Shown here in pieces: positions 18,536 to 35,200 of a stretch of 64,000 nucleotides of DNA. Location: IMG/VR virus record IMGVR_UViG_2541047959_000009; one strand, 5' to 3'. The first letter of the stretch is position 1, and the number at the start of each line of letters is the position of its first letter. The stretch comes from a virus (lineage: Duplodnaviria; Heunggongvirae; Uroviricota; Caudoviricetes). The position numbers and the translations under genes are program-made. The notes below the pieces were generated by a model that was not told the origin of the DNA, searched no databases, and saw nothing but the letters and a program-made list of their open reading frames with translations.

Positions 18536-18567
18536 GGTGCCCCCTTAGAAAGTTCCCATAATTGAAC

Positions 18568-18810
18568 TTACTTACCAACAATGACGCGGAAGTTGGAATG
18601 ACCGAGGGATTCACGGACCTGATCAGTTTTGTACATCAGATAACGAAGGCTTACGCGGCCTTTATTTTTTTCTTTCTTGACCATGTACTTAGCAAGTTGA
18701 CCATGGTGAATTTTTTGGTAAACAGAGCCACGGGAAATGCCCTCCCACTCTGCGAACTCTGCAGGCGTAGCCATCTCTTTTGGTACACGAATTGAAATAT
18801 CAGTACTCAT
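18568..18810 (-). CDS. apl: 186 Apl-like excisionase/repressor (HTH)
   Basis: 80-aa ORF first in rightward operon, divergent from cI. Confidence 0.65.
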   Translation of the reverse strand: MSTDISIRVPKEMATPAEFAEWEGISRGSVYQKIHHGQLAKYMVKKEKNKGRVSLRYLMYKTDQVRESLGHSNFRVIVGK

Positions 18811-18931
18811 AGTGCAGTATCTCTTACTTTGTGTGCGTGTTAGTTCGTTTTAGCTCGTCTCTTTAACTCTCACATCAAGAGACACGAAGACATTACGATC
18901 TTGATTCAAGATTGTCAAATGGAGATTACCA
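18811..18931. promoter_or_regulatory. Divergent apl/cI switch region (pR/pL-type promoters and operators)
   Basis: 121-bp gap between divergent apl and cI, as in 186. Confidence 0.5.
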
Positions 18932-19564
18932 ATGTTAAACATCAGAATGGGTTCCGATACGGGAGGTAAGGCAGCTATTGAGAGGCTGCTTGAGGCTTAT
19001 GGATTCACAACTAAGCAGGCATTAAGCGAGCACCTGAATGTCTCAAAAAGTACTATGGCAAACAGAGTGTTACGTGACAGTTTTCCTGCTGACTGGATAA
19101 TTCAGTGTGCACTAGAAACCGGTGTTTCGTTACTTTGGTTAGCCACTGGACAGGGAAGCATGAAAGAAGGATACGAGTCTGAGAAAAGATCTCATAACGA
19201 GAACAAACAAGCAATTAAACCGTTATCCAAACTCATAACTCCATCTATTCCTAAAGGAACCTTGGAAAATGGACAACTCAGTATTGATGAAGAGATTTTC
19301 CTAGACCACAGCATATTACCTGCAGATTATGAAGAATCGATGTTCTTAGAAACCCCTACTGATTGTTATCTCATCGATAAATCAGTTAAACAAGTCAGCA
19401 ATGGATTCTGGCTTATCAATATTGATGGAATGATTATTATTGCAAAAATCATGCGGATTCCCGGCAATAAGATTGTAGTAAATCAAGATGAAGCGTCTTT
19501 CGAGTGCTCTGCCGATGATGTGGAAGTTATTGGGCGTGCAGTCAAAGTAATAAAGAGTATCTAA
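18932..19564 (+). CDS. cI: 186 CI-like immunity repressor
   Basis: 210-aa ORF upstream of and co-oriented with int (cI-int operon as in 186). Confidence 0.8.
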   Translation: MLNIRMGSDTGGKAAIERLLEAYGFTTKQALSEHLNVSKSTMANRVLRDSFPADWIIQCALETGVSLLWLATGQGSMKEGYESEKRSHNENKQAIKPLSKLITPSIPKGTLENGQLSIDEEIFLDHSILPADYEESMFLETPTDCYLIDKSVKQVSNGFWLINIDGMIIIAKIMRIPGNKIVVNQDEASFECSADDVEVIGRAVKVIKSI

Positions 19565-19566
19565 AC

Positions 19567-20586
19567 ATGACTGTCAGAAAACAGCCAAACGGTAAATGGT
19601 TGTGCGAGTGCTATCCCAATGGACGCAATGGCAAGCGCGTGCGTAAGCAATTTGCTACGAAAGGCGAAGCCATTGCTTTTGAAAGCTTCACAATGGAAGA
19701 AGTGAACAAAAAACCATGGCTGGGGGAAAAGGAAGATCGGCGACACCTATCAGAATTAATTGAGCAGTGGTATTCCCTGTATGGTCAAACACTCGCAGAC
19801 CCCAAGCGCCTCATAGCGAAACTTAGAATTATCTGTAATGGTCTAGGCGATCCCATCGCTTCAGAACTGACAGCCGGTGACTTTACGAAATACCGCGAAG
19901 CACGGTTAAAAGGTGAAGTACGAAATGAAGATGGCACGTTTATGTCGCCCGTTAAGCCCCGCACGGTAAACCTTGAACAGCGCAATCTATCATCTGTTTT
20001 TGGTACACTGAAAAAGCTGGGCCACTGGTCAGCCCCCAACCCGCTTGCTGGGCTGCCAACATTTAAAATTGCTGAGAGTGAATTGGCGTTCCTGACCCCG
20101 GAAGAAATTAAACGTCTGCTGGATGCCTGCGCCGATTCTCAAAGCTCCAGCCTGCTTTTGATTGCAAAAATATGCCTGGCCACCGGCGCACGCTGGAGCG
20201 AAGCCGAAAACCTGCAGAGTCATCAGGTATCAAAATACCGTATCACTTATACCAAGACCAAAGGCAAGAAAAACCGAACTGTGCCTATTTCTAAGGATTT
20301 ATATGAAGAACTGCCTAAGAATAGGGGGAAGTTATTCACCCCATGCAGAAAAGCCTTTGAGCGTGCAGTAAAGCGAGCCGGTTTAGAACTACCAGAAGGC
20401 CAATGTACCCATGTTCTGCGCCATACATTTGCCAGTCATTTTATGATGAACGGTGGAAATATACTGGTACTGCGCGATATTCTTGGACATGCCGATATAA
20501 AAATGACGATGATTTACGCTCATTTTTCCCCAGATCATCTTGAAGATGCAGTAACTAAAAACCCATTAGCAACCTTGATGGATTAA
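19567..20586 (+). CDS. int: Tyrosine integrase (P2/186 family)
   Basis: 339-aa ORF; C-terminal R...HxLRHT...Y catalytic pattern (VLRHTFAS, IYAHF). Confidence 0.85.
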   Translation: MTVRKQPNGKWLCECYPNGRNGKRVRKQFATKGEAIAFESFTMEEVNKKPWLGEKEDRRHLSELIEQWYSLYGQTLADPKRLIAKLRIICNGLGDPIASELTAGDFTKYREARLKGEVRNEDGTFMSPVKPRTVNLEQRNLSSVFGTLKKLGHWSAPNPLAGLPTFKIAESELAFLTPEEIKRLLDACADSQSSSLLLIAKICLATGARWSEAENLQSHQVSKYRITYTKTKGKKNRTVPISKDLYEELPKNRGKLFTPCRKAFERAVKRAGLELPEGQCTHVLRHTFASHFMMNGGNILVLRDILGHADIKMTMIYAHFSPDHLEDAVTKNPLATLMD

Positions 20587-20590
20587 GCAC

Positions 20591-21814
20591 ATGCGCAACA
20601 TTATCGAATTAGAACAGATATCGGAAGAACTAAAAAAACATGAACTATTGCAACCCCCATTCATTGCCGAGGGAAAACTAATTTCTGACTTTTCTAAGAG
20701 AGTCGAGTGCTATTTAGAATTAATTGACTCCATTAGAAATAAATATCCTGACAACGAGATAATTAAACAAGTAAAGATTCGCACAAAATCAATAATATAT
20801 TTATCTGATAAAATAATAGAAACTCTTAAGCTATTTTTAATAGGAAATGTTAAAGAAGCTTATAAAAAATTCGATTTGGCAATTACCAAGTCATCAATGC
20901 ATACTCATCTTTATAAGATGACTGTTCCTCTAACTAAATTATGCAACCCACACACCCCTTTATTTCGCGTAAGGAAAAGTGAGTGCATCCTAAAACAAAG
21001 AGAAGAATTATTTCATATACCATTTAAAAATAGACATTTAGTTAGCGCACAAAGATTTTCTGTATCCGGTCTTCCATGTTTATATCTTGGAACATCAATA
21101 TTTGTATGTTGGCAAGAAATGGGAAAACCTGACTTTGATAAACTTTACATATCTTCCTTCATATCCGATAAAGAAAATTCAAATATAAGAATTTTAGATC
21201 TTGGGTACAATTTAACATCTGCACTTCGTACAAAACCGGGAGATCTTTGGTATTCATTCGAACAAGGTTCAGATGATGATTACGATCTAAATAATGATAA
21301 TTTCATGGATCAAATTAATGATAAAATTTCAAAGTTGATTGCATGGCCTTTAGTCCTTGCATGTAACTATACAAAAGATAATGAAAACGCAAGTTTTAAT
21401 AAAGAATACATAATACCAAACCTATTAATGCAATGGATTAGTAGTGACAGAAACAAAAATATATCAGGGATATCGTATCGATCAACAAAGATATTAAACC
21501 AAAAAGATAGCGATATTGGGATTAATGTAATTATCCCCCCAAAAATAGAAAACATAGTTGAAACCAATGATACCCACTGTCCTGTTTTAAAAAAAATATT
21601 TAGAGTTACAAACCCTGTTTCCTGGACTGTGTTTAGTACACTAGAAGCCACCCCCTATCTATACAAAAATAATTTTAATTTTTCGACCTATAATCCCGCA
21701 AAAGGATGGATTGAAGACTTTGATGAATCCCTTGTTGAACATTATGAAAATACCACTTTTAGAAAAGTTGAACTCCTTATTCATCAAATGATGAAGTATG
21801 AATATTTAAAATAA
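20591..21814 (+). CDS. RES-domain-like protein (putative NAD-targeting toxin fold), AT-rich cargo after int
   Basis: 407-aa ORF 4 bp after int stop; segment SAQRFSVSGLPCLYLGTSIFVCWQEMG matches the RES Arg/Ser/Glu signature as I recall. Confidence 0.5.
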   Translation: MRNIIELEQISEELKKHELLQPPFIAEGKLISDFSKRVECYLELIDSIRNKYPDNEIIKQVKIRTKSIIYLSDKIIETLKLFLIGNVKEAYKKFDLAITKSSMHTHLYKMTVPLTKLCNPHTPLFRVRKSECILKQREELFHIPFKNRHLVSAQRFSVSGLPCLYLGTSIFVCWQEMGKPDFDKLYISSFISDKENSNIRILDLGYNLTSALRTKPGDLWYSFEQGSDDDYDLNNDNFMDQINDKISKLIAWPLVLACNYTKDNENASFNKEYIIPNLLMQWISSDRNKNISGISYRSTKILNQKDSDIGINVIIPPKIENIVETNDTHCPVLKKIFRVTNPVSWTVFSTLEATPYLYKNNFNFSTYNPAKGWIEDFDESLVEHYENTTFRKVELLIHQMMKYEYLK

Positions 21815-21930
21815 GAGTGGCGGCATAATGGCGGCAAAGAGTTAAAAACACATAAAACAAGGTAATACATCGTAAACTTAAGTGATTGAAAATTAACATA
21901 AATAGTTGTTTTGCAACATGTTATAATGGT

Positions 21931-21975
21931 ATGTAGGAATTTCGGACGCGGGTTCAACTCCCGCCAGCTCCACCA
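21931..21975 (+). other. 45-nt copy of the ssrA (tmRNA) 3-prime end: prophage attachment core
   Basis: atgtaggaatttcggacgcgggttcaactcccgccagctccacca matches the remembered E. coli ssrA 3-prime end; upstream is unrelated AT-rich DNA. Confidence 0.7.
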
Positions 21976-22104
21976 ATCATGATTGGACGGTGTAAGGACA
22001 ACACCAACAAAAACAGGAAGTTAGAAGTCTCAGCAGGACACCGACCAGACGGTGAGGAGACATAAAAGGATACGCAAAGGAGCCGCGGCTCCGAAGTGAA
22101 ATGA

Positions 22105-22360: not shown

Positions 22361-22558
22361 ATGGCACTGGACAGTTATGCATCTCCGAATATTATTCCGG
22401 AGCTAAGACAACCGAATGCCGCAGCAGGTAAGATCACGCTAGGGGGGCTGGACAGAATGGCTGTTACGCCCAGTGTGAAGAAAAGAAGGCTAAGTATGGT
22501 AGAATTTCCATACGCACAGACCTTGTTATCCGACTATACAGCCTGGAAGGCACTATGA
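22361..22558 (+). CDS. Small ORF upstream of and overlapping the nuclease-like gene (uncertain)
   Basis: 65-aa ORF with ATGA stop-start overlap with the next gene. Confidence 0.3.
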   Translation: MALDSYASPNIIPELRQPNAAAGKITLGGLDRMAVTPSVKKRRLSMVEFPYAQTLLSDYTAWKAL

Positions 22559-23343
22559 CAAATCTACAACTGGAAGAAAGATTTAGGGCGCTTGAGAAAG
22601 ATTACGATGCGCTCATTTCCACAAAATATACTGCGCAGAACGTTCTCACTCACACTATGGAAACCTATGTTGATTCTGGTAAATATAAAAACTGGATCGC
22701 CAGAGTGAAAAAGTTAATAGAGGACAGCTACGGAAAAGAGTCTGATTATTACAATGACTTCAATACTGTAAACAGCAGGTGGTCTTCTAATTACAATACA
22801 CTGATCAAAAGTTATAAACCGTTGTTTGATGCGGCGAGAGATGATCTTGCGCACTCTGCTGTCAGTACTAATACTCCTCAAGAAGGTTCGCCGCTGAGCC
22901 TCGTACTTAATATTCTTAACAGGTTTCCGACCTTTGTTCGCCAGTTAAAGAGGCGGTACAACGGCCGTGCGCCGCTTGAAGTTAATGATGAGTATGACGT
23001 ACAGGATTTGATTTATGCACTGCTGACGCTTCATTTTAATGATATTAGGGCGGAAGAGTATACCCCCAGCTTTGCGGGCGCGGCCTCAAGACAGGACTTT
23101 CTTTTGAAAAAAGAGAAAATTGTGATAGAGGTGAAGAAAACCCGTGAATCTCTGGGAGCGGGTAAAGTTGGTGGAGAGTTGCTTATTGATATGGCGCGCT
23201 ACCGCGCTCACCAAGACTGCGATACGTTGATCTTGTTTGTATATGACCCGGATTGCTACATAAATAATCCTTTGGGCGTGAAAACCGATCTGGAATCTAA
23301 AGACGCGGAAGGAAAAGTGAAGGTTGTTATTGCGCAGTTCTGA
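22555..23343 (+). CDS. PD-(D/E)xK nuclease-like protein (putative restriction-endonuclease fold)
   Basis: 262-aa ORF; C-terminal EYDVQD...RQDFLLKKEKIVIEVKK fits D...D/E-x-K; helical N-terminal domain. Confidence 0.55.
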   Translation: MTNLQLEERFRALEKDYDALISTKYTAQNVLTHTMETYVDSGKYKNWIARVKKLIEDSYGKESDYYNDFNTVNSRWSSNYNTLIKSYKPLFDAARDDLAHSAVSTNTPQEGSPLSLVLNILNRFPTFVRQLKRRYNGRAPLEVNDEYDVQDLIYALLTLHFNDIRAEEYTPSFAGAASRQDFLLKKEKIVIEVKKTRESLGAGKVGGELLIDMARYRAHQDCDTLILFVYDPDCYINNPLGVKTDLESKDAEGKVKVVIAQF

Positions 23344-23378
23344 CACGCTTAAGTGTCACCTTACAGGATTAGGTTTGC

Positions 23379-23423
23379 GGCCGTGCCAGCAGGACGAGCA
23401 TGAAAAAGGCCGCTGGCACGGCC
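23379..23423. terminator. Hairpin between convergent genes
   Basis: ggccgtgccagc ... gctggcacggcc 12-bp stem. Confidence 0.4.
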
Positions 23424-23430
23424 GGATTTG

Positions 23431-23724
23431 TCATCTTTGCCAGGTCAAATCAAAATCTACGTGAAAATCCGCAGGCTTAAGCTCGCAACTGCCACCACGC
23501 CCAATTAACGACGTTATGTTTACAACGTTTGAACCTGTTGAGATGGCAAGTTGAGTGTCATCTGTAAACGTGATGATTAGCATTTCAGTCTGATGAACCT
23601 GTACTCCAGTTTTCTGAAAACCAATCTGGACAGATTTCACCGTTTTCCCAACCATTTCACGGGCTTGATTGATAGAGTAATTAGCTTCAACTTGTAGGTC
23701 ATTCCTGAACTTGGGTAGTGTCAT
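23431..23724 (-). CDS. Hypothetical 97-aa protein
   Basis: ORF with AAGAGGATG RBS. Confidence 0.45.
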   Translation of the reverse strand: MTLPKFRNDLQVEANYSINQAREMVGKTVKSVQIGFQKTGVQVHQTEMLIITFTDDTQLAISTGSNVVNITSLIGRGGSCELKPADFHVDFDLTWQR

Positions 23725-23934
23725 TTTACATCCTCTTTAGTGAAGTTTTCGCTATTTAAATCAGCAGCATTCCTTTTAAATCACTGGCATGTCAGCAGTG
23801 GATAGTCTGAGTGTAACGTCCAGTGAGGGGAATAAATATTGGTCAGACTTTGCACAAAAGAGCCAACTATCGCGGGCTCTCTCTCATCATGTGCGAAAAT
23901 TGACCACAATATGAAATCCAGTTCCATTCCGAAA

Positions 23935-24759
<825 letters not shown>

Positions 24760-25156: not shown

Positions 25157-25335
25157 ATGCGTATTGAGATCTCCATAGCCAAAGACAAAATGACCAAATG
25201 CCAAACGGCGCTGTGGACGCGTTAAAGGAAGAATTAACCCAACACATTGGCAAGCGTTATGACGATGTGGAGATGATCGTAAAAGCCACCAGCAACGATA
25301 GTTTTTCAGTTAGACATACTGCAGATAAAGATTGA
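25157..25335 (+). pseudogene. dinI-like gene disrupted by a frameshift
   Basis: [11 protein letters not shown]... stops after 22 codons; the DinI-like remainder ...[37 protein letters not shown] is in another frame. Confidence 0.45.
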
Positions 25336-25759
25336 GCTAAAACTTTCGTTCAGGAAACTCTGAATGATACCTGAGAGTCTACTGAAGAGTTGTTTGTTCA
25401 CTAGTTAGCACGTAGGAAATCATTCAATACTCGCACTATCGGAAGTTCACCAGCCAGTCGTAGCACGTCCTTGCAAACGACGTGCCTACGGTTTCAATCA
25501 CCTCTCACCATCAATTCTATCAATAATAATTAAACAGCGCCTAGACAAAATAAATAACAACAAGTCAACAACCTCGACAGGATGCCGATGGGATGATGAA
25601 GAGATAAGAAAGAATAACCAGTAAAGCCCTAAAACGTCAGCGTTCAGACGCGTTTTTTACTTAATCGGTAACAAATACGTTGTATCATAGCAAAATAAAA
25701 TGATTGTTCTAAATCAGATTAACTCCTCACTTTTGTACAATGTCGCTTACAGGTATACC

Positions 25760-27649
25760 ATGAAATCCGAGACGCTAACTGTCCAACAACTTTTTCAAGA
25801 CCGCCGACAATACTGTGTTCCATTCTATCAACGTGCCTATGTATGGACTCAGCAAGACCAGTGGTCAGCTCTACTGGAGGATATCCTAGAGAAAGTACAA
25901 TCCCGGCTCTCGGGTACAAAACCAACTCCCCATTTCCTTGGTGCGGTTGTACTGGAACCTCAATCAAAAAAAGGATTATTAGGTGTAGATTCCATACATA
26001 TTATTGATGGTCAGCAACGATTGACCACTCTTCAATATGTTCTGGCATCCATCCGATTAGCATTACGTGCTACGGATCTTTCCAGCTTAGAGGCTCTCAT
26101 TTCGCCTTGCCTGAAAAACTCAAACGAAGACACAATGCGAAATAAAGAAGTAGAACGCTTCAAACTGTGGCCAACTTTTCGGGATCAAACTCATTTTATT
26201 CAAAGTTTTAATGTTGAAAATATTGACGATCTCCGGGACGTATTCTCTGATAGTTTCACGCAGCATGGTACGTTGCGTAAGCATTTTAATCACCCGCCAT
26301 CACTAGAAGCATTATGTTTTTTTACTGAAGCCTTTATAAAATGGATTAAAATAGAAAACCACTCACCACAAGAAAATGCTGTAGCTCTAATTGAGGCTGT
26401 CTTAACAGATCTGAAACTGGTAAGCATATTTCTCGAAGCTGAAGATGATGCCCAAATAATTTTTGAAACATTAAATGGGCGAGGGGCGGAACTTCATGCT
26501 ACGGATCTTATTCGCAACTATATCTTTATGTGCGCTGAGCATGAAAATATTAATGCTATTGAATTATATGAAAATGAGTGGAAGAGCTTTGAAGATAAAT
26601 ACTGGTCGGAAAAACAACGCCGTGGACGTATTAATAAACCACGCATGGAGTGGCTAGTACATGCGACATTGCAATCAGAAAGGCAACGTGAAATTGATCT
26701 GTCTCGCCTTTACAATGAGTATCGTGATTATGTAAGTAAGGACTTGTCTTCACAACGAGCAGATCTGCAAGTAAAGCGCCTCAAACAATATGCATCACAA
26801 TATAAAGAATTGGTTGATGGTTTTGGCACAACCCCCATCTCACACTTTGGATATCGCATCGCAGACTATGATGTGACGACACTTTATCCGCTTGCTTTGT
26901 TCATTTCGATAGCTAACATCGCTGATGATGAGAAAGCAGCCATGTATAATGATCTTGTCTCCTACGTAGTACGAAGAGCCGTATGTGGCCTGACGCCAAA
27001 GAATTACAACAATGTATTTATGAATGTATTGCGGCACTTGGCTAAAACGGAAATTTCCAGTGTTGAGTTACGTAATATCCTCAATAACTTAAATGGCGAA
27101 GCCTCACGTTGGCCTGGTGACTCAGAATTTCTCAACGCTTGCATCAATGCTCCACTTTATCCTGGCAGGCTCGACGCACCGAAAATGCGCTCAATGTTAA
27201 CGGAACTTGAAAGAGAACTTTGTCGCCAAGTAAAGACAGAAAAGCCTGATGTTCCAAATCTTTCTAATCTCGATATCGATCATCTTATGCCTCAAAGTTG
27301 GTATTCCTGTTGGCCTCTCGAAAATGGTCGTATGGTGACAAATTCAGATGCTACGGTATTGAACCAAATTGTTCTGTCTGGAACCGATCTTACCCCTGAA
27401 CAGCTACTGGTAAGGAAACGGCAACAAGCGATATCTACTTTGGGAAATCTAACTTTGCTTAACCTTAGCGTAAACCGTTCTGTTCAGAATGCTGTATTTC
27501 TGAAAAAACGTGATGCTCTCATCGTCCACACCAATCTACGACTGAACATTCCACTTATAGTTAAGGATAAATGGGATGAGGATGAAATCCTGGAGCGGGG
27601 TAAAAAGTTGGGGGAAATTGCATTGAAAGTATGGCCAAAACACGATTAA
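25760..27649 (+). CDS. GmrSD-family type IV restriction endonuclease-like protein (DUF262 + DUF1524)
   Basis: N-terminal QRAYVW and IIDGQQRLTTL; C-terminal DIDHLMPQS...GNLTLLN His-Me finger; ORF opens at 25700 but AGGT RBS favours ATG 25760. Confidence 0.75.
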   Translation: MKSETLTVQQLFQDRRQYCVPFYQRAYVWTQQDQWSALLEDILEKVQSRLSGTKPTPHFLGAVVLEPQSKKGLLGVDSIHIIDGQQRLTTLQYVLASIRLALRATDLSSLEALISPCLKNSNEDTMRNKEVERFKLWPTFRDQTHFIQSFNVENIDDLRDVFSDSFTQHGTLRKHFNHPPSLEALCFFTEAFIKWIKIENHSPQENAVALIEAVLTDLKLVSIFLEAEDDAQIIFETLNGRGAELHATDLIRNYIFMCAEHENINAIELYENEWKSFEDKYWSEKQRRGRINKPRMEWLVHATLQSERQREIDLSRLYNEYRDYVSKDLSSQRADLQVKRLKQYASQYKELVDGFGTTPISHFGYRIADYDVTTLYPLALFISIANIADDEKAAMYNDLVSYVVRRAVCGLTPKNYNNVFMNVLRHLAKTEISSVELRNILNNLNGEASRWPGDSEFLNACINAPLYPGRLDAPKMRSMLTELERELCRQVKTEKPDVPNLSNLDIDHLMPQSWYSCWPLENGRMVTNSDATVLNQIVLSGTDLTPEQLLVRKRQQAISTLGNLTLLNLSVNRSVQNAVFLKKRDALIVHTNLRLNIPLIVKDKWDEDEILERGKKLGEIALKVWPKHD

Positions 27650-27899
27650 TGCAATTAATAAAATGATTATAGTGGCCTTACATTAGTAAGGCCGCTACTC
27701 ACTATTAAATACTTTAATTTGCATCAAGAACAGCAGTGTCAGCCCTAGGTCTCGGACTTTGTACCGCTTATCTTGTCTTCAAAAATCAGCTCGCATCCTG
27801 CACAGTTCAGCGCATTACGTTGTAGATCTGTGTTCTGGTCATTTGTTGACACACGTACATAGCCAATAAGCATGGTAGATCTCCCTGACAAAAGCAGGA

Positions 27900-28196
27900 A
27901 TGATGCCATTTGCTCGTTATTTCTGCATTTTCATAAACGTTGGTTTGGGAGAAGGCGCTGCATGGCCTGTGGGCGTCGCTGATAAACAGACCCCAGACAC
28001 ATCGCTCAGGACGGGTCTGAGATGCAACGGAACGGCTGTGATTGGTGAACCTTACCGGGAAATCATTCAGACTGATCCGGTAAGTATAAGGCGCGAATTG
28101 CCTATGAATGGAATGACTGACAGTGCTGATGGGCGCGGAGGTGATAATAGGCGTTCTGTGGTCTCAGCACCATTGCCAACTGTATTTACTATTTAG
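27900..28196 (+). pseudogene. 5-prime-truncated copy of the tail-fibre constant-region 3-prime end (left arm of mirrored cassette)
   Basis: ...GLGEGAAWPVGVADKQTPD...LRCNG...VVSAPLPTVFTI parallels the C-terminus of the fibre gene at 29612-30157; in-frame stop at 27876. Confidence 0.5.
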
Positions 28197-28200
28197 GTGC
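28176..28200. repeat. Left copy of 25-bp inverted repeat at the fibre junction
   Basis: ccaactgtatttactatttaggtgc; 24/25 identical to the reverse complement of 29608-29632. Confidence 0.6.
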
Positions 28201-28394
28201 TGGTAGCTATCCTCTTGGGATCTTCGAGAGGTTCAGGTGCTATATTCAGTAATATAGTAGGGTCAGGCGCAACCGGGGTTAGCATTACCGTCGCCGTCAG
28301 TAGGAATAATACCGTTGTGGGCACAGTGGCCGTACCACTGATTGCAACCTGTCCTTCCAATACCAGAGTCTCCGCTATAGTGATAGCACGGTAA
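28197..28394 (+). CDS. Short glycine-rich tail-fibre distal segment (Sv-prime-like), GTG start after in-frame TAG
   Basis: 65 codons in frame with upstream fragment; GSGAIFSNIVGSGATGV...RNNTVVGT homologous to the minus-strand counterpart. Confidence 0.4.
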   Translation: MLVAILLGSSRGSGAIFSNIVGSGATGVSITVAVSRNNTVVGTVAVPLIATCPSNTRVSAIVIAR

Positions 28395-28738
28395 TGATGA
28401 AAGCAGTATTCTATACAGGACGAAGTGCAACAAATGATCGGCAAGATATGGTTCAAGAATATGATGGTGAGAGAACGCTACCTGATGACACTTTAGAAAT
28501 TTACATTGACATAGGTGAGCGAATCCCTGGACAGTCCTCACAAGGTAAAGCAAGTGTAGCTGAGGCTGCAGAAGCGCCCGGTTGTATTGAGTATTCACAT
28601 CCATCGGAAGAGGTTCAGGAGCTGCCGGGTGAAATCGACAAAATATCTTTGACTTCAGAATTAAATCAAAACACAGCAACCCATGATTGGCCCGGAAATG
28701 CTACTACTGGTCGTCTAATAGGCCCGTACCATGCGTAA
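28394..28738 (+). CDS. Tail-fibre assembly/adhesin-like protein (U-prime-like)
   Basis: 114-aa ORF, TAATG overlap with previous ORF; C-terminal ...HDWPGNA; paralogous to 29088-29414. Confidence 0.5.
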   Translation: MMKAVFYTGRSATNDRQDMVQEYDGERTLPDDTLEIYIDIGERIPGQSSQGKASVAEAAEAPGCIEYSHPSEEVQELPGEIDKISLTSELNQNTATHDWPGNATTGRLIGPYHA

Positions 28739-29087
28739 GATGATTCGTGGCGGGAGTACCATAACGAGCTGGAGCTGGGCGACGCTTCATACGCGGCAGA
28801 TGCTCAGTGTCAGACACCTACGGATGTTGAGACCGGTTGCCACGGGGCGCTTTAGCTGAAATTGCAGCCCGCACCGAATCTAAGGAATGCAGCAAAAACC
28901 CAACCTGAGGCGTTGCTGGCTGAATTAGATTCGGTCCGGGCTACAATTACCACCAAATCGCACGATTTCAAGTCGTCTGAGCTGCCATCGGCGTCGGACG
29001 TTGTATTTCTGCCGCGTAGAATGTGTCGCCCTGTTCCAGTGCGGTCACGGTCTCCAACCTCGCACTATACTACTTCACTTCCTCGGT

Positions 29088-29414
29088 TTATAGGCCAATA
29101 ATAGCTGTTTTTTCGGGCCAATGACGCGGATTGGTGTTGGTATTGGCTTCTCCAGTTAAGGATATTTTGATGATTTCAGCCCTCAACTCCTGAACCTCTT
29201 CCCATGGGTTTGGGTACTTAGACCAACATGTCGCTCCACACGCGTCAGCTCTACCTGCTTCATCTTGACGGGGAAGTGCCGGGATTCCATCATAAATGTC
29301 TCTATATACACTTGTAACAGAAACAGATACCCTAGCTTCACCATCATATTTTTGAACCGAATTATCCCGTGACATAGTATTAATAACGGGACTAATTAAT
29401 ATTGAGTTATTCAT
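29088..29414 (-). CDS. Tail-fibre assembly/adhesin-like protein (U-like)
   Basis: Start MNNSILISP at 29414 with AGGA RBS; C-terminal ...PRHWPEKTA; paralogous to 28394-28738. Confidence 0.5.
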   Translation of the reverse strand: MNNSILISPVINTMSRDNSVQKYDGEARVSVSVTSVYRDIYDGIPALPRQDEAGRADACGATCWSKYPNPWEEVQELRAEIIKISLTGEANTNTNPRHWPEKTAIIGL

Positions 29415-29434
29415 TACGGTCCTATCATGAAATA

Positions 29435-29611
29435 TTAAACTCTGATATCGCATGGACAGGTATCGATCGGTGTTTCGTCGACTGTGAACGAAACCGTATT
29501 ATTCTTCCTGTCAGCGACAAAAGAATTAACCGCGGTCGCGTATGAACCTGCAATATCAGTAAATTCACCACCTGAGGCTCTCGTAGATACCGGGGGGATA
29601 ACTCGCTGCAC
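29435..29611 (-). CDS. Short tail-fibre distal segment (Sv-like), GTG start right after the TAG of the fibre gene
   Basis: 58 codons VQRVIPPVSTRASGGEFTDIAGS...KNNTVSF...TCPCDIRV, homologous to 28197-28394. Confidence 0.4.
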   Translation of the reverse strand: MQRVIPPVSTRASGGEFTDIAGSYATAVNSFVADRKNNTVSFTVDETPIDTCPCDIRV

Positions 29612-29632
29612 CTAAAAAGTAAATACAGTTGG
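29608..29632. repeat. Right copy of 25-bp inverted repeat at the fibre junction
   Basis: Reverse complement ccaactgtatttactttttaggtgc. Confidence 0.6.
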
Positions 29633-30157
29633 CTCTTGGGCTGAGACAACCTCAGGCTTTTTATAACCGGTGAGGCCATCAGCCTTGCCAGTAATACCCT
29701 TACCAGCCACTGGGGCGATTTTACTTGCCGGAACAACCTTTGTCATTTCCCGGTAATGTTCAGCAAACAAAAACGCTCCATTGCAACTAATCAAGGTTGA
29801 GGGAGGTATATCAGAAGGTTGGGTATCAGGGACGCCCACAGTTCGTGCAGAGCCTTCTCCCAAACCAAGGTTTTCGAGAGCCGTTTTCACCGTGCCGTCC
29901 GATTTGATATCGCTAAACGGATTCTTGCGGCTTAACAGCAGCGCACGAAGCGCGGTAAGCAGCTGGTCGTGCCGCGCCTTCTCCAGACTGGCACCGGATG
30001 CCTCCACCACGCTGCAGAGTTCTTCCTGCAACATGTCAAAGTAGTCATCATCCAGATCGGTGGCAGGCGTGCCTGTCTGGGGGTTACCACGGGTAAAACC
30101 GTTCTTACCCGCGCCGAACTTATCCTTCTGCGCGGTTTTCGTGTCTATACGATGCAT
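29612..30157 (-). CDS. Tail fibre protein, conserved N-terminal (constant) part
   Basis: 181-aa [32 protein letters not shown]..., the N-terminus I associate with Mu-type tail fibres; ends at TAG inside the repeat. Confidence 0.65.
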
Positions 30158-30160
30158 GGA

Positions 30161-30745
30161 TTACTCCGGATATTTAAAAATTACGTAGGTATGCGAAGGG
30201 CAGAGTTTGTTAAGCACACATTCGACGACGGTGTCGCCCCAGATACGCAGCGCGGAATCACAGGGATCGCCACATGTCATCCAGGTGCTGTTGGTGGCGG
30301 CTGGCATGTTGACCTGCCAGTAATACCGCCATTCCGGCGCATTCACCGCGTCAGTACAGGCCGATGAGCAGGTGAACGTGCTTTTGTCGTATCGCGTGAT
30401 GGTGGCGTCTGGTCTGCCCAGGGCAGCAAGCTGTGCAAGGTAAAAATCCTCATTGATGCCGCCCGCCAGGTTAACCTTCGCATCCAGTCGTTGCTGACGC
30501 TGGCGAAGGGTCTGTGTTCCTGCGGGAATACATTCATCCGGCAGGCCGCACAGACGCTCCCAGCGATTTATCAGTTCGGTGGTGGTGCGCGGATCCAGCT
30601 CCCGCATCAGGGCATCCGCACGCTGATGAACGCGGGTTAATGACTGTGCCGCACCGGCAATCGCCGGATCGCTGGCTGACCACGCCGGACCGGGCGGCAG
30701 CAGTGCCGACAACAGACGGATGTAATCATCGTTTGTCACGCCCAT
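30161..30745 (-). CDS. Mu gp48 / YmfQ-like tail protein (DUF2313)
   Basis: 194-aa ORF between baseplate J-like gene and tail fibre. Confidence 0.65.
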
Positions 30746-31794
30746 GAAATCGTCCCCAGAACCGCCAGTTCATTTTTTGCAATGGAGATATTTTCCGCCG
30801 GTGCAAGCAATTGATGGCTGTATTCCCCGTTCGCACCGGAAATCGCTTCACTGATACGCGACACCTTCAGTTCTCCCTGCGGATAACCATCACGCAGCAG
30901 GAACGAACGCAACTCCGCGGTGATGGCAGCCCGTATTTCCGGTGTATCCGGCGTCACACGGATATGAAAATCCACCGTATGCGCCACCGGCCTGAACACA
31001 TACAAATCAGAGCCTGCCACCGGGGCCAGTGGCCCGATATGTTGTCTTGCCGCCGTTTCCGTTGATTCTTCCGGAATGGGATTAATCAGGTCACTGCTGG
31101 CAATCATCACACCGACAGTCCCCGTTCCCATCCAGTGACGGTATGCCCATGCGCGGGTAATGCCGGGCAATTCTTTAGCCCAGACAACATAGTCCCCGTC
31201 AGCCCCGCCCTGAGGCGTCCAGTAATACCGCTCAATGACGCGGGCGCGCCACGTTTCCAGCTCTTCAGTATCAAATCCACCTGTCAGAGTGTCTGCCACG
31301 CCGGAAGACGGCAGACCATTAACCGGCGTGACCAGGATTAATGACGTACCGTCGTCAGCGTTACCGACCGCGCCTGCACTTGAGCAGGCGATCGGCACGC
31401 GCAGGACACCACCGGCGCTGGTTGCATCGGCAGTTGCCGTGTACTGAATCAGGTCATCGCGCTGAATAACACTCCCGGCGGTCACCTTCAGGCCATCGCT
31501 GACGCCTTCCCAGCGCATATACCCGCTGGCAGTCGTGGCCCCCTTGCGCGGACACCGTTTCATCGCAGCATGTCGCGCCAGCCAGGACTCATCGCACAGG
31601 TCAGGCAGCATGTTCATTGCCAGATAATCGATGTACCCGTAAACCGTATGCAGCGCCGCCGCATACACCTTTGCCCGCACGTCTTCATCCATGCGCCGGA
31701 GCGTGTCGCTGACGTCCAGCCTGGCGAATAAATCGTTACGGAGCATACTGATATTTTCTGCCAGCGTCGGGCGCTGAAATTCACTGTCCGCCAT
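30736..31794 (-). CDS. Baseplate J-like protein (Mu gp47-like)
   Basis: 352-aa ORF in Mu-like baseplate order. Confidence 0.8.
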
Positions 31795-32209
31795 GCGTTA
31801 TCGCACTCCACAGATCATCTAAAGAAATCATTACCGGTCCGTCACGACGCCAGAGAGTGATACTGTTACCCAGTTCATTAATCCCGGTGCGGAGGATATC
31901 CAGATCAATACGGGACACCACGCCGTCATCAATCATCCATTGCAGGCATTCGCGGATATACCCCCTTACCGTCTGCACCAGCTGATTGGTCAGTTTGCTG
32001 CGCTGAAGCAGCCACAGTCGGGAGCCGTAACGGTCATTCTGTACCGCAGGCCAGGTATCCCCCCACCATCCCATCGGGACGTCGGCGTTGTCATCAGGCT
32101 CCGCCCGCCGCCAGGTAAACAGGGAAATCACCACGGCGCGGGTCAGCGGATCCAGCGGTGCGCTGGCGCAGGTGCGTTTACCGTTCACCGTCAGCCACAG
32201 TTCCATCAT
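31781..32209 (-). CDS. Baseplate protein (Mu gp46 / gpW-like)
   Basis: 142-aa ORF; synteny. Confidence 0.7.
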   Translation of the reverse strand: MMELWLTVNGKRTCASAPLDPLTRAVVISLFTWRRAEPDDNADVPMGWWGDTWPAVQNDRYGSRLWLLQRSKLTNQLVQTVRGYIRECLQWMIDDGVVSRIDLDILRTGINELGNSITLWRRDGPVMISLDDLWSAITHGGQ

Positions 32210-32754
32210 GCCTCCATCGCTTTATCAGGTTTGTCGGTGTTACTGCCCTGACCGTTCTCTCTGTGACGATGCCCGTTATAGGCAAGCCGCATCGCTGACA
32301 TGGTGGTGCCGCTGGAGTCGCACAGGTCTTTCACCTGTCCTGTCACTTCCAGGTCCATTTCAAAACGTGCTTCAGGTGCATTGCGAAACGTGATCGTTTT
32401 ACCTGCACCGTCCACCACGATCCCCTCCCGGGTCAGCGTCACAGACTGCCCCTGATCGTCATAGACCGCCACCTCACCCGTCTGCAGCCCTTTCAGGCGG
32501 TAGCGCCGGTCCGACACCGTAACAACCACCGCATGAGAACGGTCACCATCCGGAAACAACACCACCGCTTCCGCACCGCTGTTTGCCCTTGCGGTAAAAC
32601 CGTAGGGTTCAAGATGTTCAACCCCGGCTTTGGGTTCACCGGCAATCAGGGACACATCCACGGTCTGACATTTCGTGGCGGCACTGATGCTTTTCACCAC
32701 TGCCCGCCCAATCAGGCCGAGGAGTTGTCGCTGCATGGCTTCAATCGTACTCAT
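32206..32754 (-). CDS. Baseplate assembly protein V-like (spike)
   Basis: 182-aa ORF; synteny. Confidence 0.7.
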   Translation of the reverse strand: MSTIEAMQRQLLGLIGRAVVKSISAATKCQTVDVSLIAGEPKAGVEHLEPYGFTARANSGAEAVVLFPDGDRSHAVVVTVSDRRYRLKGLQTGEVAVYDDQGQSVTLTREGIVVDGAGKTITFRNAPEARFEMDLEVTGQVKDLCDSSGTTMSAMRLAYNGHRHRENGQGSNTDKPDKAMEA

Positions 32755-33833
32755 CAGAACGGGTCCTCCTGTACTCTGGCTTTTTTCTTTTTCCGCGCGC
32801 CGGGGGCTTCGGGTTCAGGCAGATAAGCATCAGGTGGGCCGACACGGATTTCCGTCAGGGTGCCGTTCTGGTCCTGAGTAAACGTGACTTCCGAGACAAG
32901 CAGTTCGGTATTGTCGAAACCACAGACCGGATCGAAGACAATCACCCGCTGGTTGGGCTGCCACAGCGTACCGTTACCCTGTCGCCAGCCCTGCACCACA
33001 TAGGTGGTTTCATCCGTCCGCGCCGCCCGTTGTCGGGCTTCAAAGTCAGCACGCGCAATACAGCCTGCCCCCGTAGCCTGCCCTGTCTGCCTGATATACA
33101 TCGGACGGTAACGGGCAATAAATGCGTCCTCTGTGCGGGCCCGCAGCGCGCTGGTGGTGGCCTCACCGAAATCATCGTCGTTTCCAGCACGCTGCCCCGC
33201 CACCTGGTAAACAGAAAACCGCTCCCGGATACTCTTCTCCGTATCGCAGGAAAGGATGTTTTCCCCGAGTACCAGCGCAGTATGTGCCCGCGTTGAGCCA
33301 ATACCGCCAATCACCAGCCTGCCGTGTGGGTCGTCGTAAGCCAGTGCCTGCTGCTGACCGAGTATTTTGTTGATTACCTCAATCACCGTTTCACCGTGAT
33401 CGGGCTGGACGTCAGGAATAACACCCGACGGCGCACCGTTGTTCACCACCTCAATGCCGAAAGGCGCAGCAAGCGCCTGCGCAATCTGTACCAGCGATCG
33501 TCCGTTAAACTGTGTCGGTTCGGCTGCACAGTCAATCAGGTCAGCGGTCAGACTGCGTCCGGCAATACCGGTGCTGACCGAACGGGCATCGTAACGAACG
33601 GGCGTCGCCTCCACCCAGCCGGTGATCACCAGCTCATCACCAATCAGCACCTCCACTTTTGAACCGTTTTTAATGCGCGGCTGAAGCGTGGTGATACCCT
33701 CATCACCCGGCCACTGGCGGGTGATCTCCACACTGAAATCCCGCGCCAGCCGTTCAATACCGGCACCGATGCGCACCGATGTCCAGCCATTCCACTCCCG
33801 GCCATTTACCCGTAGCGTGACGTTATCGTTCAT
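32754..33833 (-). CDS. Baseplate hub protein (Mu P / gpD-like)
   Basis: 359-aa ORF after DNA circulation protein. Confidence 0.7.
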   Translation of the reverse strand: MNDNVTLRVNGREWNGWTSVRIGAGIERLARDFSVEITRQWPGDEGITTLQPRIKNGSKVEVLIGDELVITGWVEATPVRYDARSVSTGIAGRSLTADLIDCAAEPTQFNGRSLVQIAQALAAPFGIEVVNNGAPSGVIPDVQPDHGETVIEVINKILGQQQALAYDDPHGRLVIGGIGSTRAHTALVLGENILSCDTEKSIRERFSVYQVAGQRAGNDDDFGEATTSALRARTEDAFIARYRPMYIRQTGQATGAGCIARADFEARQRAARTDETTYVVQGWRQGNGTLWQPNQRVIVFDPVCGFDNTELLVSEVTFTQDQNGTLTEIRVGPPDAYLPEPEAPGARKKKKARVQEDPF

Positions 33834-35200
33834 TGCACTGGCACCTTCAGAGGGATCACCGGCACAAAGCCGGGATGCGTAATGGCATTACGCCGGATAA
33901 TGTCCGCGTCACGCGCCGCGTTATCAAACCAGGTCGCCGCCAGCACCAGCGCGGGTAAAACCTCATCCGGTGTGCGCTGAATGATCCGTGCAGACTGTTC
34001 AAGGCGCGTGTTGATATCCGCATTCAGATCTGCTTTCACCCGGCGCAGCGCCAGAAACAGCACATCACTGGTTGTACGGGACAACTCCTTATCAATTGCC
34101 GTATTCAGTGTGTCGCGAATGTCGGTCAGTTCTTCCCACGTTGGCAGGTCAACCGTGTTTTTCACCGCCGGTGCATTGTTCAGTGCCGGATGCGTGACAG
34201 AAGGCCAGCCGGTGCTCTGCGCGGGTGTTGTTGACTGCCCCACTGTGGCATTCTGCATCACCGCGGAAGTTGTGGGCGCAGGCAATCGTGTGACGGCATA
34301 CGCCGCTTCGCTGATTGCGGTCGTACGAAGGGTGCTGGCAACCACGTTACGCTGCTGCGTCGCCGTGGCGGTGGTTTTACTGTCCGTTTTCCAGACGCCG
34401 CGCGGTTGCAGATCGCTGCCGAGGCTGACACCGGAAAGCGTTTTGATCATGGTGACCAGGTCGCTGGCGTTACCATAAAGGCGTTTCCCGGTACGCCACA
34501 TTTTCTGCACCTGCTCAACGAAATTTTTGCCTGACGATGGCGGCGGCAGAAGTACCGAGATATCCCCCTGCAACAGCCTGGCGGCATCCGATACGGCAGA
34601 ATCCACCACTTTCATCGCATCAGAAACATACCCAAGCATTGTGCTGGCATTACCGACGACGTCGTTCTGCACAAAATCTGCCACGCCATCGATACTGAAA
34701 CCACTGAAGCTGTCACTGATGCAGTCATCCAGTGCAGAACAGGATGACATCAGCGTCTGCGCCGTCGCCGCACCTGAAGTGGGGTAAGAGAGTTCTCCCG
34801 CTTCGACAAACTTCAGGTCAAAGCGGACAATACGCCCTTCACTCTTCGATGTGCTGACCCGAACTTCCCCGTCAACACAGACTTTCAGCTCACCGTAAGT
34901 CGGATGGACAAGCGTGCCGGGACCGGGTTTATTCAGCGCGTCAATCAGGCGATCGCGCTGGTCAAAGCAGTCATCTCCCACCACATAAGCTGTGATGGAC
35001 GGGCGGAAAGTGATTTTCCCCAGGTCTTCGGTATAGGGTTTGTCGCGGTTCGGGTATTCGTGCGTTTCCACACGACGACCGGTTCCCGCACTTTCTTCTT
35101 CAACCTTAAACGGCACACCGCGAAATGACGCGTCCTGAAGTCTGTCTTTCCACGTCATATAAACTCCGTACATAAAAAATCCCACCGGAGTGGGACTCAT
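33830..35200 (-). CDS. Mu N-like DNA circulation protein
   Basis: 456-aa ORF downstream of tape measure. Confidence 0.7.
   Translation of the reverse strand: MSPTPVGFFMYGVYMTWKDRLQDASFRGVPFKVEEESAGTGRRVETHEYPNRDKPYTEDLGKITFRPSITAYVVGDDCFDQRDRLIDALNKPGPGTLVHPTYGELKVCVDGEVRVSTSKSEGRIVRFDLKFVEAGELSYPTSGAATAQTLMSSCSALDDCISDSFSGFSIDGVADFVQNDVVGNASTMLGYVSDAMKVVDSAVSDAARLLQGDISVLLPPPSSGKNFVEQVQKMWRTGKRLYGNASDLVTMIKTLSGVSLGSDLQPRGVWKTDSKTTATATQQRNVVASTLRTTAISEAAYAVTRLPAPTTSAVMQNATVGQSTTPAQSTGWPSVTHPALNNAPAVKNTVDLPTWEELTDIRDTLNTAIDKELSRTTSDVLFLALRRVKADLNADINTRLEQSARIIQRTPDEVLPALVLAATWFDNAARDADIIRRNAITHPGFVPVIPLKVPVQ

What the first reader, a model, noticed from the sequence alone, without database searches (positions are those of the whole stretch)
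21931..21975. ssrA 3-prime core marks the prophage-1 boundary; second prophage may be in tandem
Only the last 45 nt of tmRNA are present, preceded by AT-rich cargo, so this is an att core copy rather than ssrA itself. The int gene points toward it, as in 186-type phages. Finding a further accessory island and a second prophage right after this core suggests a tandem or composite island at the ssrA hotspot.
Basis: partly seen in the sequence, partly recalled or inferred. Interest (0 to 1): 0.4.

Follow-up and report, generated by a model that had tools for sequence, protein, structure and literature searches.

The report
Two prophages in tandem at ssrA
The 45-base piece of the tmRNA gene is the junction scar between two different prophages inserted one after the other into the same E. 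coli gene (ssrA), a well-known kind of arrangement and therefore ordinary.

Summary
Window 21931-21975 is an exact copy of the last 45 nt of E. coli ssrA, and the repeat is 46 bp counting A21976. It occurs once in the window and none is expected by chance.

The window is an ST95-type E. coli chromosome almost identical to strain S88. In S88 the intact ssrA lies 12.1 kb upstream of the window start. A 34-kb 186/Fels-2-type P2-like prophage fills the gap up to the fragment. UTI89 lacks exactly this prophage, and the free phage Cartapus carries the matching attP.

Right after the fragment starts a second element of about 43 kb, a PhiNP/LLS-type prophage. The "accessory island" is its own defence-gene cargo, not a separate island. 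It ends 1.07 kb beyond the window at a degenerate third ssrA fragment (25 nt, one mismatch, then a 5-nt deletion) followed by about 155 bp of ssrA-downstream sequence.

709 of 5426 complete E. coli genomes have ssrA joined directly to glaH with nothing inserted. Both phage families are already known to target ssrA, so novelty is low.

Side finds: a conserved structured "trailer" after ssrA that these phages copy in attP, and an assembly artefact in the invertible tail-fibre segment.

The parts
1..21930 (.). Distal two thirds of element 1, a 186/Fels-2-type P2-like (Peduoviridae) prophage. Its first 12.1 kb and the intact ssrA lie upstream of the window.
   Evidence: S88 annotation shows P2-type tail, baseplate, head, terminase and lysis genes plus cI/apl/cII/fil. 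int-cI DNA is 91% identical to phages Cartapus and RE-2010.
18568..18810 (-). Apl/Cox-like excisionase-repressor of element 1
   Evidence: Same position and size as the 'Cox-like excisionase and repressor' of phage Cartapus and as apl of 186.
18932..19564 (+). 186-type CI repressor of element 1
   Evidence: Annotated as phage repressor CI. 32% identical to 186 CI over the full length, E 2e-36.
19567..20586 (+). Tyrosine integrase Int1, transcribed toward the core
   Evidence: Pfam Int_N and Phage_integrase. 54% identical to 186 Int. Homologues lie 0.2-3.3 kb upstream of an ssrA fragment in at least 25 viral contigs.
20591..21814 (+). AT-rich 407-aa cargo gene between int and attP, function unknown
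   Evidence: phrog_7835, E 5e-180; no Pfam, NCBIfam or PADLOC match. 42% identical to the Cartapus gene at the same position. The slot holds other genes in related prophages, such as GapS1.
21818..21836 (+). Pair of putative Int1 arm-type binding sites (TGGCGGCA-N3-TGGCGGCA) in the P arm of attR1
   Evidence: Unique in the window, with 0 expected. The same pair lies at the same distance left of the core in Cartapus attP, and a second pair lies 49-67 nt right of the core in both Cartapus attP and S88 attL. It is the reverse complement of the 186 arm-site consensus YAYCGCCAYTY.
21931..21976 (+). 46-bp copy of the ssrA 3' end. It is the attR core of element 1, and its last 25 nt (21951-21975) are also the attL core of element 2.
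   Evidence: The 25-bp PhiNP attB/attP sequence is given in PMC6456863.
21976..22128 (+). About 153-nt 'trailer' ending in a terminator (stem 22107-22122, T-run 22123-22128). It is the element-2 attP-derived copy of the native ssrA downstream region.
   Evidence: About 93% identical to the copy beyond prophage 2 and 91% to phage LLS attP. Alleles such as GGAGCCGCGGCTCC match the phage copy, not the chromosomal one. Folding z-score is -4.2 and there is covariation.
22555..24708 (.). Defence cargo block 1 of element 2: a DpnII/MboI-like PD-(D/E)XK nuclease (22555-23343 +), a 97-aa ORF (23431-23724 -) and the PD-T4-3 GIY-YIG nuclease (23935-24708 -).
   Evidence: Pfam and PADLOC. The block sits between the att arm and dinI, which are adjacent in phages PhiR12_1 and PhiNP.
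25157..25374 (+). dinI-like pseudogene, a backbone gene of the PhiNP/PhiR12-type phage next to attP
   Evidence: S88 annotation. 72% nt identity to PhiR12_1 dinI and a tblastn hit to PhiNP DinI.
25700..27649 (+). GmrSD-family type IV restriction enzyme (defence cargo block 2)
   Evidence: Pfam GmrSD_N and GmrSD_C; PADLOC mREase_IV over the full length.
27751..27873 (-). Remnant of a Pin-type invertase gene
   Evidence: S88 annotation: 'recombinase family protein, incomplete'.
27935..29873 (.). Invertible tail-fibre segment of element 2, flanked by 50-nt inverted repeats. In this window it is a base-by-base mixture of both orientations.
   Evidence: 578 positions fit both orientations, 699 only the forward one, 662 only the inverted one, and 0 fit neither.
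29874..61700 (.). Body of element 2: Mu-like contractile tail, HK97-type head, terminase, lysis, Q antiterminator, replication and immunity genes.
   Evidence: S88 annotation; identical in UTI89.
61715..61921 (+). Probable excisionase of element 2, overlapping the int start
   Evidence: Same position as the annotated xis of PhiNP and LLS.
61882..63054 (+). Tyrosine integrase Int2, unrelated in sequence to Int1 outside the catalytic motif
   Evidence: Pfam Arm-DNA-bind_2 and Phage_integrase. 91% aa identity to PhiNP Int and 86% to LLS Int. Int1 versus Int2 shares only a 60-aa motif.
63046..64000 (-). Cargo ORFs between int2 and attR2 (a 199-aa ORF and a STAS-like ORF cut by the window end). attR2 lies at window-equivalent 65068.
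   Evidence: S88 annotation. PHROG families of unknown function. Third ssrA fragment.

Best explanation
The 45-nt stretch is the displaced 3' end of ssrA, sitting at the junction of a two-member tandem array of prophages, both integrated by site-specific recombination into the tmRNA gene.

The likely history has two steps. First, a PhiNP/LLS-type phage (element 2, about 43 kb) integrated. Its integrase Int2 recombined a 25-bp core at the ssrA 3' end. Its attP supplied a new 3' end plus a trailer and terminator of about 155 bp. The original end was pushed to the glaH side, where it has since lost 5 nt.

Second, in the S88 lineage, a 186/Fels-2-type P2-like phage (element 1, 34 kb) integrated into the rebuilt ssrA through a 46-bp core, using the unrelated integrase Int1. 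This left the previous 3' end at window 21931-21976.

That fragment is therefore attR of element 1 and, through its last 25 nt plus the trailer, attL of element 2. The 'accessory island' after it is defence-gene cargo carried inside element 2.

Shown here: the three direct repeats, the precise empty sites, the matching attP sequences of free phages, and the two integrases. Inferred: the order of the two events, the crossover positions, and whether either element can still excise.
For: - Exact 46-bp direct repeat with intact ssrA. There are only three ssrA-derived stretches in 90 kb of S88, all in direct orientation.
- The UTI89 attB arms are 100% identical to the attL-left and attR-right arms. 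The right arm of Cartapus attP is 97.7% identical to the attL right arm.
- Conserved arm-type site pairs lie at equal distances from the core in attP, attL and attR, and they match the 186 consensus.
- The third fragment plus trailer is about 93% identical to window 21946-22130.
- A synthetic empty site (ssrA joined to the far-copy right arm and glaH) matches 709 of 5426 complete genomes over its full length at 99.8%.
- The attR2 junction is present in 116 genomes.
- Int2 is 91% identical to PhiNP Int. PhiNP's 25-bp ssrA attachment site was determined experimentally (PMC6456863).
- Free phage LLS carries the ssrA 3' end plus the same trailer next to its int, annotated by its depositors as a tmRNA pseudogene and attP.
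- Fels-2 and SopEPhi are reported to integrate into ssrA (PMC3448106).
- The array meets the Islander rule for a tandem: each member has its own integrase and its own tDNA fragment (PMC4383910).
Against: - Everything outside the window (the intact ssrA and the third fragment) is read from S88, UTI89 and other genomes, not from the window's own assembly. That assembly differs from S88 by 2 SNPs and one artefactual segment.
- The third fragment is imperfect: one mismatch and a 5-nt deletion. A simple 26-nt search missed it.
- Crossover points were not mapped.
- The replication gene A of element 1 is frameshifted in S88, so that element may no longer be a viable phage.
Confidence: 0.93

Rival explanations
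1. The accessory island (window 21976-27900) is a third, independent integrative island between the two prophages, making a three-member array.
For: It is a compact block of defence genes with lower GC than the prophage structural genes. It directly follows an att core.
Against: It has no integrase of its own. No ssrA fragment lies between it and the tail-fibre genes; only three fragments exist in the whole interval. It contains the dinI backbone gene that sits next to attP in PhiNP and PhiR12_1, so the defence genes are insertions on either side of dinI. Its first 153 nt are the phage-type attP arm. It is present, and identical, in UTI89 together with prophage 2.
Confidence: 0.04
2. The whole 77-kb interval is one composite element that moved as a unit, not two separate integrations.
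For: The outermost repeats (ssrA and the far fragment) share the 25-bp Int2 core, so Int2 could in principle excise both elements together.
Against: 116 genomes carry the attR2 junction, and those inspected (UTI89 in full; the ST95 strains listed) have element 2 without element 1. The tandem is seen in only about 3-5 genomes. Element 1's ends match a free phage attP. The two integrases are unrelated.
Confidence: 0.02
3. The 45-nt stretch is a remnant of a decayed or duplicated ssrA gene, or a chance tRNA-like match, unrelated to site-specific integration.
For: No tmRNA gene is detectable in the window itself.
Against: It is an exact 45-nt match with none expected by chance. Its boundary coincides to the base with the phage attP core in Cartapus and RE-2010. 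Conserved arm-site pairs flank it.
Confidence: 0.01

Closest known systems
Fels-2 / SopEPhi / RE-2010 / Cartapus group of P2-like phages (Peduoviridae) that integrate into ssrA
   Same: P2-type structural genes and a 186-type cI-apl-cII-fil switch. The order cI, int, cargo gene, attP is the same. attP contains the identical 45-nt ssrA 3' end. int-cI DNA is 91% identical to Cartapus and RE-2010. ssrA integration of Fels-2 and SopEPhi is reported in PMC3448106.
   Different: The cargo gene between int and attP is a diverged allele (42% aa identity to Cartapus). The prophage also carries PD-T7-1 and an AIPR/AbiU-like gene. Replication gene A is frameshifted.
Coliphage 186 (Eganvirus)
   Same: Same switch architecture, with int transcribed toward attP and one ORF in between. 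Int is 54% and CI 32% identical. The arm-type site consensus is similar.
   Different: 186 uses the 3' end of tRNA-Ile ileY, not ssrA. Its tDNA fragment faces int with its 3' end, whereas here the 5' end of the fragment faces int. From the 186 record I infer that int abuts the intact gene in a 186 lysogen, whereas here it abuts the displaced fragment.
Citrobacter phage PhiNP and Escherichia phage LLS (ssrA-integrating temperate myoviruses)
   Same: Int2 is 91% and 86% identical to their integrases, and xis overlaps the int start. The 25-bp ssrA 3'-terminal core is shared. attP carries the type-A trailer. dinI lies next to attP.
   Different: Here the arm-to-tail-fibre interval is filled with different defence cargo (a DpnII-like nuclease, PD-T4-3, GmrSD). 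The pin invertase is a remnant. The attR fragment has a 5-nt deletion.
CP4-57 of E. coli K-12 and tandem islands at tmRNA genes (Islander database; Williams 2003, 'Traffic at the tmRNA gene', cited in PMC4383910 but not readable here)
   Same: Same hotspot. K-12 has ssrA, then CP4-57, then a 14-nt pseudo-ssrA ('psaA'), followed by the same type-A trailer. Islander reports the tmRNA gene as the most enriched integration target and records 125 tandem arrays.
   Different: CP4-57 uses a P4-type integrase placed next to the intact gene, and it supplies a different trailer of about 80 nt.

Membership tests
Tandem array of integrative elements at a tRNA/tmRNA gene (Islander criteria, PMC4383910) | Intact target gene at one end, in the same orientation as the fragments | tested here: met
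   ARAGORN finds a tmRNA with tag ANDENYALAA at S88 2797922-2798284. It lies outside the window and is read from the near-identical genome S88.
Tandem array of integrative elements at a tRNA/tmRNA gene (Islander criteria, PMC4383910) | Each member has its own displaced tDNA fragment in direct orientation | tested here: met
   A 45-nt fragment at window 21931 and a 25-nt fragment at S88 2875473, both on the plus strand, with no others.
Tandem array of integrative elements at a tRNA/tmRNA gene (Islander criteria, PMC4383910) | Each member has its own integrase gene | tested here: met
   Int1 at 19567-20586 and Int2 at 61882-63054, both with the Pfam Phage_integrase domain and unrelated to each other.
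Tandem array of integrative elements at a tRNA/tmRNA gene (Islander criteria, PMC4383910) | Precise absence of each element in related genomes | tested here: met
   UTI89 lacks element 1 exactly. 709 genomes lack both elements, with ssrA joined to glaH.
ssrA-integrating P2-like phages (Fels-2 / RE-2010 / Cartapus) | attP of free phage genomes equals the attR left arm plus core plus the attL right arm | tested here: met
   Cartapus has the identical 45-nt core. Its right arm is 97.7% identical to attL. Its left arm is conserved only near the core and at the arm sites, because the cargo differs.
ssrA-integrating P2-like phages (Fels-2 / RE-2010 / Cartapus) | P2-type late gene synteny and a 186-type lysogeny switch | tested here: met
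   RefSeq annotation of S88 compared with the 186 and Cartapus records.
ssrA-integrating P2-like phages (Fels-2 / RE-2010 / Cartapus) | Inducible, replication-competent phage | not testable with these tools
   Gene A is annotated as frameshifted in S88, and the window shows it split into ORFs 13444-13800 and 13797-15884. This suggests a defective prophage.
PhiNP/LLS-type ssrA-integrating phages | Integrase closely related to one with an experimentally mapped 25-bp ssrA attB | tested here: met
   91% aa identity to PhiNP Int. The attB mapping is in PMC6456863.
PhiNP/LLS-type ssrA-integrating phages | The 25-bp core GGTTCAACTCCCGCCAGCTCCACCA is present at both ends | tested here: inconclusive
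   It is intact at attL2 (window 21951-21975). At attR2, 19 nt are identical and are followed by a 5-nt deletion. That may or may not still support excision.
CsrB/RsmZ-type protein-sequestering sRNA (considered for the trailer only) | Matches the Rfam model above its gathering score, with multiple GGA motifs in hairpin loops | tested here: not met
   PrrB_RsmZ scores 20.4 bits against a gathering score of 44. Only one of seven GGA motifs sits in a hairpin loop. GGA enrichment is weak, P 0.08.

The most novel reading that the evidence does not exclude
The stretch of about 150 nt that follows the ssrA CCA end (window 21976-22128) may be a functional module in its own right. It is conserved in two sequence types across Enterobacterales. 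The Int2-family phages copy it into attP. It keeps three hairpins by compensatory change, and it carries AGGA/RGAC motifs spaced at multiples of about 10.4 nt. It could be an undescribed structured RNA co-transcribed with tmRNA (a 3' trailer or sRNA). Alternatively it could be a helically phased protein-binding array, such as integrase arm sites, that has also become fixed at 'empty' chromosomal sites.
Probability: 0.25. Interest if true: 0.45.

Novelty: already known. Interest (0 to 1): 0.2.

Why it matters
This is a clean worked example of how the tmRNA gene collects mobile DNA. Each incoming phage rebuilds the gene's 3' end and pushes the previous end outward, so the fragments record the order of arrival.

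In practice it fixes the exact prophage boundaries in ST95 ExPEC strains such as S88 and UTI89. It shows that several known defence genes (PD-T4-3, GmrSD, PD-T7-1, an AbiU-like AIPR protein) ride on these two prophages. It does not reveal a new mechanism.

Tried and rejected
- ARAGORN, and Rfam at gathering threshold, found nothing in the window. The fragment is too short for them; Rfam's E-value mode was needed.
- A 26-nt core search with up to 3 mismatches found no third copy in S88. That was a false negative caused by a 5-nt deletion. An exact-word comparison and blastn-short found the copy.
- I first took the difference from S88 at 27955-29845 for a simple inversion. Reverse-complement tests and blastn rejected this. 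A per-position test showed a mixture of both orientations.
- A 28-aa ORF starts 5 nt after the CCA in the trailer. I rejected it as coding because it stops early in the chromosomal and LLS copies.
- A strand test on the trailer hairpins was uninformative: 22 G-U pairs against 24 A-C pairs.
- tblastn for Int1, Int2 and IntA in the 42 genome loci found almost nothing within 8 kb. An earlier run was spoiled by a clash between alignment and locus names.
- Williams 2003 (PMC142792) is not held in the library.
- A literature search for a known sRNA or trailer downstream of ssrA found nothing relevant.

Full report
**The observation**

Window 21931-21975 reads ATGTAGGAATTTCGGACGCGGGTTCAACTCCCGCCAGCTCCACCA. 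This is the only match in the window even with 3 mismatches allowed, and none occurred in 100 shuffles. ARAGORN and Rfam at gathering threshold find no tmRNA gene in the window. In E-value mode Rfam reports a 5'-truncated tmRNA match in which only about the last 45 positions align with confidence. The DNA just before it is AT-rich (GC 0.32). An integrase gene on the same strand (19567-20586) is transcribed toward it.

**Where the window comes from**

Window 19000-25000 is 100% identical to E. coli S88, MS7163 and N53. Over its whole length the window differs from S88 by two SNPs and one odd segment, discussed under side observations. The conversion is: window position = S88 position minus 2810405. 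Everything said below about DNA outside the window is read from S88 and its relatives, and is to that extent an inference.

**Element 1**

- In S88 the intact ssrA (tag ANDENYALAA) lies at 2797922-2798284, which is 12.1 kb upstream of the window start.
- Its 3' end and the window fragment form an exact 46-bp direct repeat.
- Between the two lies a 34.1-kb P2-like prophage. It has a 186-type switch (cI, apl, cII, fil) and the gene order cI, int, 407-aa ORF, core.
- UTI89 and many other ST95 genomes lack exactly this prophage. There, ssrA runs straight into window 21976 onward.
- The four att sites fit the classical scheme. The UTI89 attB arms are 100% identical to the left arm of attL and the right arm of attR. 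The attP of the free phage Cartapus has the same 45-nt core, and its right arm is 97.7% identical to the attL right arm.
- A pair of TGGCGRCA repeats, spaced 11 bp apart, lies 95-113 nt left of the core in the window (21818-21836) and in Cartapus attP. A second pair lies 49-67 nt right of the core in Cartapus attP and in S88 attL. None is expected by chance. These repeats are the reverse complement of the Int arm-site consensus annotated in phage 186.
- Int1 is 54% identical to 186 Int, and CI is 32% identical to 186 CI.
- 186 itself uses ileY, and its tDNA fragment has the opposite orientation relative to int.
- The closest phages are Cartapus, RE-2010 and Fels-2. Fels-2 and SopEPhi are reported to integrate into ssrA (PMC3448106).

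**Element 2 and the third copy**

A search for a 26-nt core allowing mismatches but no gaps found no further copy. An exact-word comparison of the two ends of the UTI89 interval did find one. Just before glaH lies GGACTCGGGTTCAACTCCCGCCAG, then a 5-nt gap, then CCAATCATGATTGG and about 155 bp more. The whole stretch is about 93% identical to window 21946-22130 and includes the terminator. In S88 it starts at 2875473, which would be window position 65068, or 1.07 kb past the window end.

blastn-short with the whole ssrA gene finds only three significant stretches in 90 kb, all in direct orientation: the gene itself, the 45-nt fragment and this 25-nt fragment.

I then built a synthetic empty site by joining ssrA to the right arm of the far copy and continuing into glaH. 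It matches 709 of 5426 complete E. coli genomes over all 1100 nt at 99.8% identity. The whole 77 kb between ssrA and glaH is therefore inserted DNA, and the far copy is the original chromosomal end.

The near copy (window 21976-22128) carries phage-type alleles. For example it has GGAGCCGCGGCTCC, as in phage LLS, where the chromosome has GGAGTCGCGACTCC.

Element 2 has its own integrase (61882-63054), which carries an arm-binding domain. Apart from the catalytic motif it is unrelated to Int1. It is 91% identical to the integrase of Citrobacter phage PhiNP and 86% identical to that of phage LLS. PhiNP's attachment site was mapped experimentally to the last 25 bp of ssrA (PMC6456863). The LLS depositors annotate a tmRNA pseudogene and attP next to int. 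The attR2 junction is present in 116 genomes, including the E. coli type strain. The full tandem is seen in only about 3-5 genomes.

**The 'accessory island'**

Window 22130-27900 has no integrase, and no ssrA fragment separates it from the tail-fibre genes. In PhiNP and PhiR12_1 a dinI gene lies about 100 nt from the att arm. In the window the same dinI, here a pseudogene at 25157-25374, lies 3 kb from the arm. The space between arm and dinI is filled by a DpnII/MboI-like nuclease, a small ORF and PD-T4-3. After dinI comes a GmrSD type IV restriction enzyme, and then a remnant of the pin invertase gene. The island is therefore the cargo end of prophage 2, not a separate element.

**Mechanism and history (inferred)**

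- The PhiNP-type phage integrated first. It rebuilt the ssrA 3' end and terminator from its own attP.
- The P2-like phage then integrated into the rebuilt gene in the S88 lineage.
- The window fragment is therefore attR of element 1 and, through its last 25 nt plus the trailer, attL of element 2.
- The array meets the Islander definition of a tandem: each member has its own integrase and its own fragment. The same paper notes that the tmRNA gene is the most enriched integration target (PMC4383910).
- The arrangement is of a known kind and lies in a sequenced, annotated genome. I rate it as already known.

**Side observations**

1. *The trailer.* The roughly 150 nt after the CCA end give a sub-threshold hit to RsmZ in Rfam (20.4 bits against a gathering score of 44). 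They fold well (z-score -4.2).
   - The same block, in two sequence types, follows the ssrA 3' end in 42 genome loci across Enterobacterales and in at least 120 viral contigs. It also follows the displaced 'psaA' fragment of K-12.
   - In an alignment of 25 type-A copies, three hairpins are kept by compensatory changes. 92.8% of cells are paired, against 33-53% in shifted controls. Eight pairs show changes on both sides, and none of 500 shuffles reached the observed score.
   - Against a purely RNA reading: AGGA motifs sit at positions 10, 21, 41, 61, 81, 93 and 104, which is a period of 10.4 nt. The G-U versus A-C strand test shows no strand preference. P2-like phages and CP4-57 supply quite different short trailers, and PhiNP integrates into K-12, where the trailer differs.
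   - Whether this block is an RNA element, an integrase arm-site array, or both is unresolved.
2. *The invertible segment.* Window 27935-29873 lies between 50-nt inverted repeats. It is a per-base mixture of both orientations of the invertible tail-fibre segment: none of its 1939 positions matches neither orientation. No complete genome contains this sequence. It is a consensus artefact from a culture with mixed orientations, and the ORFs inside it are not real.
3. *Defence genes in prophage 1.* It carries PD-T7-1 (11127-12536) and an AIPR/AbiU-like gene (561-2261). Its replication gene A is frameshifted.
4. *The 5-nt deletion in attR2.* It implies that precise excision of element 2 from UTI89-like strains would leave a damaged ssrA. 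This is an inference.

Noticed in passing
window 21976-22128 (also S88 2875498-2875650, K-12 2777986-2778136, L007:6093-6245): A 'trailer' of about 150 nt follows the ssrA CCA end and finishes in a terminator. It is conserved in two sequence types across Enterobacterales and is copied in the attP of PhiNP/LLS-type phages. Three hairpins are kept by compensatory change, and AGGA/RGAC motifs recur with a period of about 10.4 nt. It is not in Rfam (best hit RsmZ, 20.4 bits, below threshold). Whether it is an RNA element or an integrase arm-site array is unresolved.
   Followed up: partly
window 27935-29873: The invertible tail-fibre segment of prophage 2 is, in this window, a position-by-position mixture of both orientations: 699 positions fit only the forward orientation, 662 only the inverted one, and 0 fit neither. 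No complete E. coli genome contains this sequence. It is an assembly consensus artefact from a culture with mixed orientations, so the ORFs called inside it are not real. It also implies active inversion, although the adjacent pin gene (27751-27873) is only a remnant.
   Followed up: yes
window 11127-12536 (-) and 561-2261 (+): Prophage 1 carries a full-length PD-T7-1 defence gene (E 1e-196) in the slot between the portal gene and the DinI-like ORFs. It also carries an AIPR/AbiU-like gene between baseplate gene V and the virion morphogenesis gene.
   Followed up: partly
window 20591-21814 (+): The slot between int and attP of ssrA-targeting P2-like phages is variable. Here it holds a 407-aa protein of phrog_7835 with no known domain, 42% identical to the Cartapus protein at the same position. 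Related prophages have other genes there, such as GapS1.
   Followed up: partly
window 13444-15884 (-): Replication endonuclease gene A of prophage 1 is split into two ORFs (695 aa and 118 aa) and is annotated as frameshifted in S88. The prophage may be replication-defective.
   Followed up: no
S88 2875473-2875497 (window-equivalent 65068-65092; L002:37474-37498): The displaced ssrA fragment at the far end of prophage 2 has one mismatch and lacks 5 nt (CTCCA) of the acceptor/CCA end. The deletion is identical in UTI89. Precise Int2-mediated excision in strains without prophage 1 would therefore probably leave a non-functional tmRNA gene, which may lock the prophage in place.
   Followed up: partly
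window 63046-64000 and L002:36080-37322: Three minus-strand ORFs lie between int2 and attR2: 199 aa, a STAS-like 108 aa, and 303 aa. They belong to PHROG families of unknown function and match nothing in PADLOC, Pfam (only the 199-aa ORF was scanned there) or NCBIfam. They may be uncharacterised phage cargo at an att-proximal hotspot.
   Followed up: partly
L001:2286-2891 (S88 2798285-2798890, upstream of the window): After integration, the P2-like phage supplies its own short terminator directly after ssrA, followed by a BRCT-domain gene on the same strand. Read-through from the strong ssrA promoter could drive that gene. A comparable ssrA read-through into prophage speA is described for S. 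pyogenes M1UK (PMC9951164, seen only as a search result).
   Followed up: no
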